From Octopus vulgaris (taxonomy: Eukaryota): DNA of 64,000 nt. The position numbers were made by a program, and so were the translations under genes. The first letter of the stretch is position 1. Each line of letters opens with the position of its first letter. Where the stretch lies: assembly GCA_951406725.2 (NCBI GenBank), contig OX597820.1, forward strand, positions 91,946,001-92,010,000, given 5' to 3'. Shown here in pieces: positions 5,829 to 62,857 of this stretch. The notes beneath the pieces were generated by a model that was not told where the DNA came from, made no database searches, and saw only the letters and a program-made list of their open reading frames with translations.

Positions 5829-5892
<64 letters not shown>

Positions 5893-5920
5893 AAGGGTGA
5901 AAAGGAACACACGAGTTGAT

Positions 5921-6397
5921 ATATATGAAAAAACAAGTCAAAAATAGAAAATGCTAAAATAATTTTATAGTGAACATTTCAGTACCGGTTTCGGTCATTT
6001 TGAGACCTTTTCAACTGTAACGATTAAATAATTAAATTTAGAAAAATTAGAGGAAAAGTTTTTTTAAAAGAATATTTCTATAGTAGTGTTCAGATTTAAG
6101 TGGCATTCTGCCTTTCACTGACTCACTTGTTTGCACTTGTGTGTTCGAGGTAGTTGTGTACACAACTACCTCGAACACACAAGTGCAAACAAGTGAGTCA
6201 GTGAAAGGCAGAATGCCACTTAAATCTGAACACTACTATAGAAATATTCTTTTAAAAAACTTTTCCTCTAATTTTTCTAAATTTAATTATTTAATCGTTA
6301 CAGTTGAAAAGGTCTCAAAATGACCGAAACCGGTACTGAAATGTTCACTATAAAATTATTTTAGCATTTTCTATTTTTGACTTGTTTTTTCATATAT
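5921..6397. repeat. Spacer-less palindrome, about 239-bp arms, (TA)n-flanked
   Basis: Centre TGTGT|ACACA at 6159/6160; arms identical except one indel in a T/A run. Confidence 0.97.
6301..6338 (+). ncRNA. Minimal type I hammerhead ribozyme, U3-A8 core variant (mirror copy at 5980-6017 on -)
   Basis: CAG-TTGAAAA-GGTC(tcaaaat)GACC-GAAAC-CG-GTA-CTG: stem I CAG/CTG, stem II GGTC/GACC, palindromic stem III ACCGGT, GUA cleavage triplet. Confidence 0.7.
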
Positions 6398-6433
6398 ATA
6401 TATATATATGGACATGCATGTGTGTATATATGT

Positions 6434-8677: not shown

Positions 8678-8794
8678 TTTATAGAAGGAGCTTCTACAGG
8701 ACTAGAACTGTTTCATTCAAAAGAAATCATCAGGAAGCCAGGCTTCCTGATGATTTCTTTTGAATGAAACAGTTCTAGTCCTGTAGAACTCCTC

Positions 8795-20549: not shown

Positions 20550-21027
20550 CACACACACTGACACAAATATATATATATATATATATATGACTATATACAT
20601 ATATTCATTCATTGCCATGCATACACACATACACACAGTTATACATGCATAACCTTACATACGTACACTAATTTATGCGTTTGTATATATATTTGTGTGT
20701 TTGTGTGTATATCTTAATAGAAGCATAATTATAATAATTTTGCTCCATTTTTCTGATCTGAGCAAGATGTGATAACAATATTCAATATAGCTGAAATCAA
20801 CATATAAATCTAATGCTATGTTTCTTCTTTTCCCGAGTTACTCGAAAACATATCTAGGAATTTTATTTAGGTATTGCCATTGTTTTTTCATAAGGTTGAA
20901 GCTTGTCACATTCACTTTAAATGCAGTTAGCTGACTGACAAATATGCACGTATGAAACACGAAGTAAACTCTCTCTGTGTGTATGTGTGTGTGTAGAAGG
21001 TTGAAAAGTAAAACATGATTTAACATT

Positions 21028-21352
21028 TATAAGGTAAATATAACAAGGTAGAAAATGCTAAACTAATTTTATCATGAAATACATTTTATTACGGTTAGTA
21101 CCGGTTTCAGGCTTTTCGACTTTTTCAACTAAGAGTAAAACAAAGGTGGATATTAATTAAGAAGGAGAAAAAACAATTGAATTGAAGAAAAAAATTAATT
21201 AAATGTTTTGTAAATATTTCCATAATCTTCAAATAGGTAGGACATTTTCCTGTCACTCCCTCTTTTTCTTTTTGAAGGCTCGGTAGATAGTAGCAGCTAC
21301 TGTCTACTGATGAAGTTATTTAACATTTTCTACTTTGTCTTATTTTCCTTAT
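21028..21352. mobile_element. Older fold-back element of the 5921-6397 family, with a U3-A8 HHR at 21095-21132 (-)
   Basis: Termini 21028-21075 and 21308-21352 are diverged inverted repeats. TAGAAAATGCTAAA is shared with 5945. Minus strand reads TTAG-TTGAAAA-AGTCGAAAAGCCT-GAAAC-CG-GTA-CTAA. Confidence 0.7.
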
Positions 21353-28527: not shown

Positions 28528-29788
28528 AAAATTAACACAGCTGCAAAATTAACATAGAACTGTTACTTAGAGTTTCACATTCCCGTTCGGCGGATAGTTG
28601 TAGTGAATACTGAATTTTAGTCATGATCACAATTGTCCAAGAAACGGGAGTTATGTATCACGATGTATATTTGAAAGGAGCTGCTAATTGTTTACTCGAC
28701 TTTCAAGTAATTGACATCTAATCTTTCTCACAATACATTTTTGTTTTCTTTGAGGAAGAAGTACTCGAGAACATACTGAAAAACATAAATTAGGGTTAGT
28801 AACAGCTACGATACCTATAATCAGACGCTCGCTAGAGCTGGCACAGAAGTTAAGCAGCATCAATTACGTAAACCATATTATGTATATGTATAACACGCAT
28901 GTTTGGGCTCTTGCACAAGGAACTTCGTCGCTATTGCATTGTTTATTGTCAGCGATGTTTTGCATGAATAGAATTAAGAGCACACATTTTCTTTCCGCTA
29001 CTTTCGATTATTGGCATACATCATATAAACACATAGGTTTCAATCAGTCGCTAGATCAAATAACCTTTTATGCTACTCGGAATATATATACAAAATATAT
29101 TCTACAATTACGGCTCAATAGTGGTGAATATTAATGTTCCCTCTAACAATTCTCAAATGTGTCATTATACTTGTTTCGCCATTTTGAACGCTTTATCATA
29201 TTTTCAATATTGTTGGAAGTTTCCACTTCGAATCAAACAGATTCAATTTATTTCTTTGCATTCTCCAACTCTTGTTTCTTGGTTAAAATCGTTTGTGCTT
29301 TATGTTACGGAACGGATAGATACAGATTTTGCTGCAGATGAATTTTTAGCACCCATGGCTTATTGCGATTTTCCCTTCGTATATACTGTTTGCTAAATGA
29401 ATATTATTTCTTACACAGTAATAAATTGAGAAGGAAAATTATATATGGAAAACTATTTGTAATATCCGCGTTTGCTCCTGACGTTCAAACAGGTTAAATC
29501 AAATCACAGTGTGTTTTAGAAAAGAAGTAATTTGTTATTATACGGACAGGAGCCTCAGAGCACAGAAAATTTGGTACAAAAATATATAGCGAAAATTGTC
29601 TTGTTCGACATACAGAAGATATTTGATAGTAAAAGAACAGCGAGTACAGATTATCGCTAACTAATTAAGAATAAAATCAGTCAGTAATAATTTCAAAATA
29701 ATTTTTTCTCCGCCTAAAATTGTAAAAACTTTCATTTATATTTTCCTCTTAATCATTATGCTTCACGCATGACAAACACACCGGCACT

Positions 29789-56019: not shown

Positions 56020-56060
56020 AAAGTGGGGTTGTAGGGTACCGCACGAGTGGAATAATATAC

Positions 56061-56812
56061 GAAAGAAGGTTTGAAAATGCAATTTTAAAATATTTTTATT
56101 TACTTTACCGGTTTCACTCTTTGGAAAAAGATTGTCAAAAGTAACATGTAAAAGTTTGGTTATGTTAATTATTGGTTGTTACAATATGCTACATTACATT
56201 TATACAGTCTCTGGTAACAAGAACATGTTAAGGACATAAAAAAGTTTAACAAGTCCCTTAAAATATTGGGCACAAAAGATTGTAACATAAATATACATTC
56301 TCAAGAAACTGTTAAAGATAGTTTCCAGAAGGAATTATTAAAAAGTTCAGTGGGATATTGGTATTGTATCTGTATATTCAAATACGCACAGAATATTGGT
56401 TGTCACAGAGTACTACAATACATATATATACATTCTTTGGTGACAAGAGCATGTTAAGAACATAAAAAAAGTTTAACAAGTTCATTGAAATATTGGGCAC
56501 AGATACAATACCAATATCCCACTGAACTTTTTAATAATTCCTTCTGAAAACTATCTATAACATTTTCTTGATAATGTATATTTATGTTATAATCTTTTGT
56601 GCCCAATATTTTAAGGGACTTGTTAAACTTTCTTATGTCCTTAATATGTTCTTGTTACCAGAGACTGTATAAATGTAATTTAGCATATTGTAACAACCAA
56701 TAATTAACACAACCAAACTTTTACATGTTACTTTTGACAATCTTTTTCCAAAGAGTGAAACCGGTAAAAGTAAATAAACATCTTTTAAAATTGCATTTTC
56801 AAACCTTCTTTC
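56061..56812. repeat. Fold-back element: about 313-bp arms (56061-56373 / 56499-56812), 125-bp spacer
   Basis: Arms are reverse complements with scattered mismatches. HHR-like TTACTT-TTGACAA-TCTTT(ttcc)AAAGA-gt-GAAAC-CG-GTA-AAGTAA at 56100-56144 (-) and 56728-56773 (+). Confidence 0.92.
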
Positions 56813-56816
56813 TATA

Positions 56817-56902
<86 letters not shown>

Positions 56903-59324: not shown

Positions 59325-59957
59325 TTTTTGCATGAACCGGTCAGTCAAGCGGCGTCCCGTTTGCCTGATGTATAGAAAAGGGCAGAGAGAGAGCACGAGA
59401 TGCAGGAGATGACATTGGTAGAAGTGCAGGTGAAGGAGTCGGTGATATGATAAGGTCGATGATGGGTGCCGGTGAAGAGGGTTGTGTTGGAGAGGTAAGG
59501 GCAAGTGCGGCAGCGTGGGCGGGAGCAGGGGAACAAGCCGGGTTGGGAGATTGGGTTAGCGAAGAAGCTGTGGACCAAGAGGGCTCGCAGGTTGTGGGCT
59601 CATTTGAAGGAGGGGAGGGGTCGATTAGGGAAGATGTGCGAAGTGTAGGGGCCAGATTGGAGTCGCCGGAAAGATCGGAGAATGGTGCGATGGAGAGGTA
59701 GGGTTGTGGGAGTGGTAGGGGAGAGGAAACGGGAGACGGGGGAAGGCGTAGCGGGTGAAGATGGAGAGCAGATGCACGGTCCACGGAACGTGCTCTGGCA
59801 ATAGCGATGTGGATAGTGGTGAGGGGATATCCACGTAGGATAAAGTGGCGAGTCATGAGTTGAGACTGAGTCACAAAGTCATGGTGGTCACTGCAGAGCC
59901 TGCGTAGATGGAAGAATTGAGAATAGGGGATGTAAAGCTTGGTGTGATGAGGATTGT
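59325..59957 (-). pseudogene. Penelope-like element (Neptune-type) ORF remnant: RT thumb, Cys linker, GIY-YIG endonuclease
   Basis: PHHTKLYIPYSQFFHLRRLCSD...FILRGYP; PCSRPRCRTCPY...FTCTSTNVISCISC; FLYIRQTGRRLTDRF (decayed YIGxT.R), spread over three frames. Confidence 0.92.
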
Positions 59958-60177
59958 TCTGCATTTAAATTGATGTAATGATTTCAGTGTTCAATTAAGC
60001 CGAGTTGCTTGAAACGATCGTACTGCATTACCTCTCGATATATTGGTTACTTATTTTGATTTTAATCATCTTGTTTTGACATTTTATGGATAATACCTTA
60101 TTAAATTCTGGTGCCTCAACTTAAGAACCTAATTCATCTGAATTTCTTTCTCTCTCTCCCACTCACTCACTCTCTCA

Positions 60178-62097: not shown

Positions 62098-62247
62098 GTG
62101 AAATAGAAAGATGAATAATCTTGTAGTAGATTAATCAAAAGTTTAACCGATACCTTAGTAGCAAAAATCACAGCAGTAAAACAGCACGGTTGGAGGTACA
62201 ACCATATGGTGTTGCAACCGTGCGTTGGTGCGGATAATTGAAATTAG

Positions 62248-62794
62248 AACATTATTGGTGAATTGAAGAAATGGAGCTGAACGCAGATTGAACAGAAATC
62301 GTTTTATTTCATTCTACACGTGTTTCGAAAGGCACAAATTACCAAAATCCGATGGAATAATGGGACCATATTGTGTCTTTCTCTTCAGGAAGAAAATAGG
62401 AAATCCGTTGGAAAAACAAAAACAGAACAGAGGCGGAGCAAAAACAAATCGAACTATGCTCCTAAGAGCCCATGGCGAAACTGTTTATCAGTGTATGTTG
62501 AGAACCGATGCCTGACCCGTTGAATTCTTCAGCCACCGGTTCTCAACATACACTGATAAACAGTTTCGCCATGGGCTCTTAGGAGCATAGTTCGATTTGT
62601 TTTTGCTCCGCCTCTGTTCTGTTTTTGTTTTTCCAACGGATTTCCTATTTTCTTCCTGAAGAGAAAGACACAATATGGTCCCATTATTCCATCGGATTTT
62701 GGTAATTTGTGCCTTTCGAAACACGTGTAGAATGAAATAAAACGATTTCTGTTCAATCTGCGTTCAGCTCCATTTCTTCAATTCACCAATAATG

Positions 62795-62796
<2 letters not shown>
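62248..62796. repeat. Fold-back element: about 268-bp arms, 13-nt loop, ending in (TA)n
   Basis: 62248-62515 and 62529-62796 are identical except near the loop; this explains the mirrored ORFs in the track. Confidence 0.97.
62649..62737 (+). ncRNA. Type I hammerhead ribozyme with canonical core (mirror copy at 62307-62395 on -)
   Basis: TTTC-TTC-CTGAAGA-GAAAGaCACAA(...)TTGTGcCTTTC-GAAAC-ACGT-GTA-GAA-t-GAAA: all core nucleotides, long stem II, palindromic ACACGTGT stem III, GUA site. Confidence 0.85.

Positions 62797-62857
<61 letters not shown>

What the first reader, a model, noticed from the sequence alone, without database searches (positions are those of the whole stretch)
6301..6338. 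Hammerhead family with compensatory U3-A8 catalytic core (UUGANAA)
Three loci (5980/6301, 21095, 56100/56728) have UUGA(A/C)AA in place of CUGANGA. All keep GAAAC-CG-GUA, while stem I (CAG/CUG, UUAG/CUAA, UUACUU/AAGUAA) and stem II differ in sequence but still pair. C3-G8 is a known Watson-Crick tertiary pair, so the double change preserves it. This covariation argues for selection on function, and standard CUGANGA searches would miss the family. The 2-nt stem III loop cannot close in a monomer, and ACCGGU is self-complementary, implying a dimeric ribozyme.
Basis: partly seen in the sequence, partly recalled or inferred. Interest (0 to 1): 0.85.

Follow-up and report, generated by a model that had tools for sequence, protein, structure and literature searches.

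The report
Penelope retrotransposon hammerhead with U3-A8 core
This is a hammerhead-ribozyme motif at the end of a Penelope-like jumping gene with thousands of copies in this animal genome; its swapped U3-A8 core and its likely cutting in pairs were already described for such elements in 2014, so it is a new member of a known kind.

Summary
The motif is real: a type I hammerhead with U3-A8, a GUA site and palindromic ACCGGU at 6301-6338. The genome holds 5,738 pattern matches against 10 for the reversed control. The identical motif lies in both terminal repeats of full-length Penelope-like elements (RT + GIY-YIG, Neptune/Nematis-type linker), 4.2-4.4 kb apart. The window loci are truncated remnants, two of them inverted pairs. 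Helices I and II covary across 11 subfamilies, so the fold looks selected; cleavage is untested. It is not new: Cervera & de la Peña 2014 report the U3-A8 core (~1,300 hits), palindromic helix III, dimer model and opposite-strand pairs in these elements. Caveats: the three loci share U3-A8 by descent, dispersed copies decay neutrally, the fold-back buries the motif in duplex, and U3 is predicted to pair with A17. Side findings: a 359-bp retrozyme-like family records U3-A8, C3·A8 and C3-G8 clades; the parent element has a conserved UUUUUUA ORF1/RT overlap, which this scan already noted on other DNA.

The parts
6301..6338 (+). Type I hammerhead motif, family A: helix I 6301-6303/6336-6338 (extended 6296-6299/6340-6343 beyond an A·A mismatch), core U3-A9 6304-6310, helix II 6311-6314/6322-6325, G12-A14 6326-6328, palindromic helix III 6329-6334, predicted cut after A17 (6335)
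5980..6017 (-). Identical hammerhead copy in the inverted arm
6160..6399 (+). 5'-truncated 3' end (pLTR) of a family-A Penelope-like element, running into (TA)n; 223 of 227 aligned bases identical to the 3' pLTR of full-length elements L113 and L114
5919..6159 (-). Inverted copy of the same pLTR end, joined with no spacer at 6159/6160; 240 of 240 aligned bases complementary, one gap
5885..5918 (-). About 34-nt 'tail' on one end only, matching the sequence that follows the upstream pLTR in full-length copies (ending about 25 nt before the ORF1 ATG), then (TA)n
   Evidence: against L114
21095..21132 (-). Hammerhead motif of older family B (U3-A8, GUA) in a decayed pLTR remnant of about 21000-21296; helix II has one U·C mismatch in this copy
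56100..56144 (-). Hammerhead motif of family C1 (U3-A8, C7, U·U at base of helix II, GUA) in inverted arm 56055-56373
56728..56773 (+). Second family C1 copy in arm 56499-56817 (arms 90% complementary); extra A after GUA

Best explanation
The motif is a type I hammerhead-ribozyme fold carried in the terminal repeat (pLTR) of an endonuclease-bearing Penelope-like retrotransposon, and in the intact element it likely cuts the transcript after GUA, weakly, by pairing with a second copy through its palindromic ACCGGU. Shown: the full core with the 3-8 pair swapped to U-A; the same motif in both direct pLTRs, 4.2-4.4 kb apart, around ORF1 and an RT + GIY-YIG frame; helix I and II covariation across subfamilies; and the window locus as a truncated inverted insertion in (TA)n. 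Inferred: a transcript from the upstream pLTR carries two copies, helix III forms between them, and cleavage defines the ends of the unit-length RNA used for retrotransposition. The copy at 6301 is a dead passenger: a transcript across the locus would fold into a roughly 240-bp duplex that buries the whole motif, and no same-strand partner was found nearby. Odds: hammerhead fold in a PLE pLTR about 0.95; selected in the mobile lineage about 0.85; measurable dimer cleavage in vitro about 0.6.
For: Genome counts 5,738 vs 10, and 1,128 vs 10 for shorter helix II. All 4 inverted pairs 3.2-3.7 kb apart that I fetched enclose RT/endonuclease frames. L034 hits Pfam RVT_1 (E 2.9e-8, above cut-off) and GIY-YIG (E 1.5e-4, 22.4 bits, just under the 22.6 cut-off). 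7 of 30 ORF-selected loci have a same-strand motif upstream; 6 of those 7, fetched whole, have two same-strand motifs 4,238-4,412 bp apart. DKG, YLDD and C-x4-C-x2-C motifs are present. Endonuclease ends also lie upstream of the motif, on the same strand, in family B (L162, L164, L175, L185 of 30 loci) and family C (L132, L139, L043, L252). Across 11 subfamily majorities, 32 of 33 first-three helix I pairs form against a permuted mean of 16.6 (0 of 100,000 permutations), 18 of 22 helix II pairs form against 10.8, and position 17 is A, C or U in every majority. Two-strand MFE is -25.7 against 2 x -9.1 kcal/mol. Published precedent: PMC4209133, PMC3088659, PMC8557442.
Against: No cleavage was measured. 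U3 pairs with A17 at probability 0.77 in the predicted monomer ensemble; the analogous C3-G17 pair is the presumed trap that slows minimal hammerheads at least 300-fold (PMC3884650). Core positions are no better kept than flanks among dispersed copies: family B 7.3% vs 6.6%, family C 0.6% vs 1.4%, neither significant (best-scoring copies only). The subfamilies are related and D, F2 and H rest on 3, 1 and 2 copies, so the permutation value overstates independence; 13 of 166 copies were unclassified and left out. Helix II is only 2 bp in families E and F and starts with U·U in C. A C3·A8 mismatch lineage of a sister repeat was copied to at least 8 loci. Published PLE hammerhead dimers cleave poorly in vitro.
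Confidence: 0.8

Rival explanations
1. The fold is kept but is catalytically attenuated or silent: U3 pairs with A17 and extends helix I over the cut site, and the motif serves as a folding, dimerisation or protein-binding signal for the element's RT/endonuclease rather than as a cutter.
For: U3-A17 probability 0.77; C3-G17 trap precedent; A17 occurs with U3 in 7 of 11 subfamily majorities; weak helix II in C, E and F; an amplified C3·A8 clade; Cervera 2014 leave non-cleavage functions open; Naiad PLEs spread without canonical hammerheads.
Against: All catalytic positions and the NUH rule are kept in all 11 majorities, though the core was part of the search pattern. Tertiary-stabilised G17 ribozymes still cleave. 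U3-A8 is reported active in vitro. The sister family appears to have returned to a paired 3-8 state.
Confidence: 0.14
2. The three loci are an independent, locally functional ribozyme family selected in place in the host genome.
For: The motif at 6301 is intact and identical in both arms.
Against: It is 98% identical to pLTRs of full-length elements, one of thousands of copies, decays like its flanks in families B and C, and is predicted to be fully duplexed with the opposite arm (38 of 38 bases).
Confidence: 0.03
3. The motif is a chance look-alike inside a repeat.
For: Rfam score is far below the gathering threshold; the DNA is AT-rich.
Against: Helices I and II were not in the search pattern yet pair with different sequences in six unrelated-looking groups; the position matches published PLE hammerheads.
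Confidence: 0.03

Closest known systems
Hammerheads in pLTRs of Penelope-like elements (Cervera & de la Peña 2014, PMC4209133; parts 1-2 of 4 read, one supplement file searched)
   Same: Type I topology, position in pLTRs, U3-A8 core variant (about 1,300 hits in Schistosoma mansoni), small palindromic helix III, dimer model, opposite-strand pairs 100-700 bp apart, many solo truncated copies, G10.1-C11.1 pair.
   Different: At 6301 there is no extra base between A9 and 10.1, and helix II is 4 bp rather than 7-8. U3-A8 here marks a whole radiation (at least 11 subfamilies, thousands of copies), mostly with A17. I saw no mention of this host group in the parts read.
Natural U3-A8 hammerheads (Perreault et al. 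2011, PMC3088659; passages)
   Same: C3-G8 covarying to U3-A8 in nature; palindromic stem/loop III and hypothetical dimers for repeat-type hammerheads.
   Different: The passages seen do not tie U3-A8 to Penelope-like elements.
Small PLE hammerheads that cleave as dimers (Lünse, Weinberg & Breaker 2016, PMC5785218; not held, seen only as a citation and through the review PMC6765202)
   Same: Short palindromic stem III, PLE association, dimer cleavage.
   Different: I could not check whether their set includes U3-A8 cores or these families.
Neptune/Nematis-type EN+ PLEs (Craig et al. 2021, PMC8557442, passages and supplement search; Arkhipova et al. 2013, PMC3846280, passages; Frangieh et al. 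2024, PMC11167929, part 1 of 4)
   Same: RT followed by GIY-YIG, CX2-5CxxC linker, direct pLTRs, inverted 5'-truncated copy, 30-40 bp tail at one end, palindromic inversion junction, microsatellite targets.
   Different: The parent has a separate ~410-aa ORF1 overlapping the RT frame in -1 with UUUUUUA; canonical EN+ PLEs are described as single-ORF, although Craig's Fig. 1 legend says ORF1 can be separated by a frameshift (figure not visible, so the clade is unknown to me).
Non-LTR retrozymes (Cervera & de la Peña 2020, PMC7229834, passages; Li et al. 2026, 10.64898/2026.07.22.740005, abstract and first part of Results)
   Same: Type I hammerheads with weak helix III; a U·U at the base of helix II occurs in axolotl HHR_Amex2, as in family C. 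A 359-bp tandem family in this genome fits this class.
   Different: The window's families are ends of autonomous elements, not short tandem units.

Membership tests
Type I hammerhead ribozyme | Conserved core with a Watson-Crick 3-8 pair, G12 A13 A14, A15.1-U16.1 | tested here: met
   3-8 is U-A
Type I hammerhead ribozyme | Helices I and II formed and covarying | tested here: met
   pair probabilities 0.84 and 0.97 at 6301; 32 of 33 and 18 of 22 pairs across subfamilies
Type I hammerhead ribozyme | Helix III formed | tested here: inconclusive
   probability 0.0 in the monomer; 6-bp intermolecular duplex predicted at -8.3 kcal/mol
Type I hammerhead ribozyme | NUH cleavage triplet | tested here: met
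   GUA here; A, C or U at 17 in all 11 majorities; U3-A17 pairing is a caveat
Type I hammerhead ribozyme | Loop 1-loop 2 tertiary contact | tested here: inconclusive
   loop II and the 5' flank resemble the Rfam HH9 consensus, but helix I is 4 nt shorter
Type I hammerhead ribozyme | Self-cleavage | not testable with these tools
   needs in vitro assay or raw-read RNA ends
Rfam Hammerhead_HH9 (RF02275) | Gathering score 52 bits | tested here: not met
   19.7 bits, E 0.006 on a 101-nt search; no hammerhead among the 150 of 403 rows shown for the whole window
PLE pLTR hammerhead (Cervera 2014) | Located in both pLTRs of a PLE | tested here: met
   6 of 7 full-length loci
PLE pLTR hammerhead (Cervera 2014) | Palindromic 15.2-16.2 / loop 3 | tested here: met
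   ACCGGU
PLE pLTR hammerhead (Cervera 2014) | Extra nucleotide between 9 and 10.1 (typical of the minimal subtype) | tested here: not met
   A9 is followed directly by G10.1 at 6310-6311, so it is not filed under the strict min-HHR subtype but with the small palindromic helix III variants
EN+ Penelope-like element, Neptune/Nematis type | RT with C-terminal GIY-YIG and CX2-5CxxC linker | tested here: met
   GIY-YIG scores just under Pfam's cut-off
EN+ Penelope-like element, Neptune/Nematis type | Direct pLTRs, inverted truncated copy, one-sided tail, microsatellite target | tested here: met
EN+ Penelope-like element, Neptune/Nematis type | Single ORF (canonical description) | tested here: not met
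   ORF1 plus a -1 frame RT-EN ORF; optional per the Craig 2021 Fig. 1 legend
EN+ Penelope-like element, Neptune/Nematis type | Clade placement by RT phylogeny | not tested
   no reference PLE proteins were in hand, so Neptune versus Nematis is unresolved
Non-LTR retrozyme | Short non-coding tandem units of about 170-400 nt | tested here: not met
   window families flank 4-kb coding elements; met only by the separate 359-bp family

The most novel reading that the evidence does not exclude
U3-A8 with A17 is a tuned state, not a neutral swap: U3 pairs with the cleavage-site A and damps cutting in the most abundant autonomous families. The same genome also preserves the compensatory walk U3-A8 to C3·A8 to C3-G8 as three amplified clades of one 359-bp retrozyme-like family, which would give a natural series for measuring how a ribozyme crosses a fitness valley.
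Probability: 0.2. Interest if true: 0.55.

Novelty: new member of a known kind. Interest (0 to 1): 0.24.

Why it matters
As a class it adds little: U3-A8, dimer-type hammerheads in Penelope-like elements have been in print since 2014. It is useful as material. Young, near-identical elements with intact RT-endonuclease frames and thousands of copies make the open question of what PLE hammerheads do in vivo easier to test. It shows that CUGANGA descriptors miss much of this genome's set (5,738 + 1,128 U3-A8/GUA matches, against 2,862 loose canonical matches with 647 control). The sister family offers natural paired, mismatched and re-paired 3-8 states.

Tried and rejected
The whole-window Rfam scan was swamped by TA-repeat hits, with no hammerhead in the 150 of 403 rows shown. 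The repeat finder was dominated by microsatellites. My first strict scan found 6 hits: it missed the 56100 family because of U·U and gave 3 chance-like hits at 28747, 42540 and 45589. 3-8 covariation inside the GUA families was rejected: C3-A8 90, U3-G8 90, C3-G8 16 with control 9. Expression: no RNA holder listed on record. Contigs of 4 runs only guessed to be RNA were laid on L114:1390-3300; they cannot show ends or strand, so they say nothing on cleavage. The AG just before U3 in families A and B resembles a splice acceptor, as in D. virilis Penelope, but none of the 3 joints listed uses it, and families C-F lack the AG; not pursued. The same holds for TTTTTTAG as an acceptor at the ORF overlap. 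No fused ORF1-RT protein was found among 2,135 longer candidates (weak evidence), and ORF1 has no Pfam hit. No consistent structure follows the slippery site (MFE -0.2 to -10.5). A small group (L105, L126) has an unresolved helix I register and was left out. The first retrozyme tree was distorted by junction copies and was redone with a coverage filter. Lünse 2016 and Arkhipova 2017 are not held. Literature searches that gave nothing: C3U/G8A and 'programmed ribosomal frameshift' with Penelope-like. Earlier-finding look-ups by combined words, by place and by sequence were empty. The host species was not determined; 'octopus' as a search term was a guess from genome size and composition.

Full report
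Observation. The window reads, at 6301-6338 (+), CAG / UUGAAAA / GGUC-UCAAAAU-GACC / GAAA / CCGG / UA / CUG. Numbered as a hammerhead this is U3 at 6304, A8 at 6309, G10.1-C11.1 at 6311/6325, G12 at 6326, A15.1 at 6329, U16.1 at 6334 and A17 at 6335. The other loci are present. GAAACCGGTA has 8 window matches at up to one mismatch against 1.89 expected. In the 2.8-Gb genome, TTGANAA-N12-18-GAAACCGGTA matches 5,738 times against 10 for the reversed pattern, and the N6-11 version 1,128 against 10. Helix II is imperfect at 21095 (U·C in this copy) and in the 56100 family (U·U at its base), and the 56728 copy has an extra A.

What carries it. All 4 inverted pairs 3.2-3.7 kb apart that I fetched from the first 100 listed matches enclose reverse-transcriptase/endonuclease frames. 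The 784-aa frame of L034 hits Pfam RVT_1 above cut-off and GIY-YIG just under it. A search with the start of that frame gave 720 candidates, 40 scored and 30 fetched; 7 of the 30 have the motif upstream on the same strand. Fetched whole, 6 of these 7 have two same-strand motifs 4,238-4,412 bp apart, in direct repeats of 0.4-1.7 kb. The protein has DKG, YLDD and a C-x4-C-x2-C linker before GIY-YIG, which Craig et al. 2021 give as the mark of Neptune and Nematis PLEs (PMC8557442, passages). I did not build an RT tree. Families B and C also have endonuclease ends upstream on the motif's strand in some loci (4 of 30 B loci; L132, L139, L043 and L252 for C).

The window locus. 5919-6159 and 6160-6399 are reverse complements (240 of 240 aligned bases, one gap), 98% identical to the pLTR of full-length copies, and set in (TA)n. 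One arm has a 34-nt tail matching the sequence after the upstream pLTR. This is the published PLE insertion pattern: an inverted 5'-truncated copy, a 30-40 bp tail at one end and a palindromic junction (PMC8557442; PMC3846280; PMC11167929). A read-through RNA is predicted to pair all 38 motif bases with the opposite arm, so this copy is unlikely to act in place.

Is the fold selected? Across 11 subfamily majorities (153 of 166 distinct copies in hand; 13 unclassified and dropped), 32 of 33 first-three helix I pairs form against 16.6 when 3' strands are permuted, 18 of 22 helix II pairs form against 10.8, and position 17 is never G. Helices I and II were not in the pattern; the core and helix III were. 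The subfamilies are related and three rest on 1-3 copies, so the p-values are optimistic. Against selection on individual copies: homology-picked copies differ from their majority as often in the core as in flanks (B 24/328 vs 247/3769; C 2/308 vs 40/2823).

The 3-8 pair. With GUA, the genome has U3-A8 5,738, C3-A8 90, U3-G8 90 and C3-G8 16 (control 9). Independent decay predicts about 1.4 doubles, so U3-A8 at the three loci is one inherited state and not repeated covariation. Both paired states do occur in a separate 359-bp tandem family: of the first 100 of 211 matches, counted by eye, 53 are C3-G8, 36 U3-A8, 11 C3·A8 and 0 U3·G8. A tree of 40 copies with core and helix II left out places the C3·A8 copies (8 loci, near-identical) with the C3-G8 clade (FastTree support 0.986), inside a U3-A8 grade under midpoint rooting (C3-G8 sampled from only 3 loci, no outgroup). 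That supports eventual compensation, and it also shows that a mismatched core can be copied repeatedly.

Mechanism. Shown: anatomy and position. Predicted: helix III does not form in the monomer (probability 0.0), ACCGGU self-pairs at -8.3 kcal/mol, and the two-strand MFE is -25.7 against -18.2 for two monomers; a hand-drawn one-site dimer scores -22.3. Inferred: the two pLTR copies of one transcript, or two transcripts, pair and cut after A17 to set the ends of the transposition RNA, the model of Cervera & de la Peña. The equivalent C3-G17 pair is the presumed cause of at least 300-fold slowing in minimal hammerheads and 8- to 100-fold in tertiary-stabilised ones (PMC3884650, passages). Activity may therefore be low. 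No cleavage or expression evidence was obtained.

Prior art. PMC4209133 (parts 1-2 of 4 read) reports hammerheads in PLE pLTRs, a U3-A8 variant with about 1,300 hits in S. mansoni that its first descriptor missed, palindromic helix III, dimers with low in vitro activity, and opposite-strand pairs 100-700 bp apart. PMC3088659 (passages) reports natural U3-A8 and cites in vitro activity. The review PMC6765202 (passages) states dimer cleavage, citing Lünse 2016, which is not held. PMC7229834 (passages) reports a U·U at the base of helix II in an axolotl retrozyme hammerhead. I found no paper on the U3-A17 pair or on an amplified C3·A8 intermediate (searches; subscription papers, figures and one supplement file unseen).

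Side finding on the parent element. Full-length copies have a roughly 410-aa ORF1 overlapping the RT frame, which is in -1 and has no Met before its first conserved motif. UUUUUUA stands in the ORF1 frame in all 6 representatives chosen from 5 groups, whose RT frames are 42-57% identical to family A; copies with a degraded site exist, such as L125. It is the only T6 run in 3.5 kb of family A coding DNA and one of two in family E. Contigs of 3 of 4 runs bridge it without a gap, and 3 outside ORF1 homologues end in FL...DTRW. A -1 ribosomal frameshift is my best reading (about 0.65); a splice acceptor at TTTTTTAG is the rival. Craig's Fig. 1 legend already mentions an ORF1 frameshift, and two earlier scan notes describe the signal on other DNA.

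Verdict. The motif is real, well formed and probably functional in the mobile lineage, but it is a new member of a published kind, and the window copies are dead insertions. Interest 0.24.

Noticed in passing
L115:2761-2824 (also L123:3932, L211:5874, L214, L216:3353, L252:1814): Conserved UUUUUUA in the ORF1 frame where ORF1 overlaps the AUG-less RT-endonuclease frame (-1), with a GACAC motif 15-30 nt downstream; candidate programmed frameshift in an endonuclease-bearing PLE.
   Followed up: partly
L244-L251, L257-L276 (for example G000:C1:20002278-20004542, C4:80857196-80857949): A 359-bp tandem retrozyme-like family with C3-G8, U3-A8 and an amplified mismatched C3·A8 clade; the tree suggests U3-A8 to C3·A8 to C3-G8.
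   Followed up: partly
window 6296-6303 and 21129-21138: The 5' strand of helix I ends in TTACAG or CTTAG after an AT-rich tract, like a 3' splice site, as reported for D. virilis Penelope; absent in families C-F.
   Followed up: partly
L091-L110, L118-L124: Young family E has a hammerhead with only a 2-bp helix II next to intact RT-endonuclease frames; the E/F second pair covaries C-G to U-A.
   Followed up: partly
L112:1734-1855: A family-A element ends about 60 nt before a family-E hammerhead that leads into a family-E ORF1, suggesting insertion into another PLE's pLTR.
   Followed up: no
window 8694-8790: Another short inverted pair beside (TA)n with a canonical CUGAUGA start and a decayed helix II/III, probably the end of a different PLE family.
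   Followed up: no
window 59341-59964 (-): Open frame resembling a PLE RT thumb and linker (28% to the family-A protein, E 1e-6; no Pfam hit).
   Followed up: partly
window 62245-62799: A 271-nt, 99% complementary inverted repeat ending in (TA)n, with no hammerhead match to my patterns; likely another fold-back insertion.
   Followed up: no
genome-wide: Canonical C3-G8 hammerhead-like matches with mostly palindromic helix III (ACUAGU, ACAUGU, ACCGGU) number 2,862 against 647 control.
   Followed up: no
L209-L210: Three identical 4,036-bp tandem units of a decayed C-linked PLE with no hammerhead match to my pattern.
   Followed up: no
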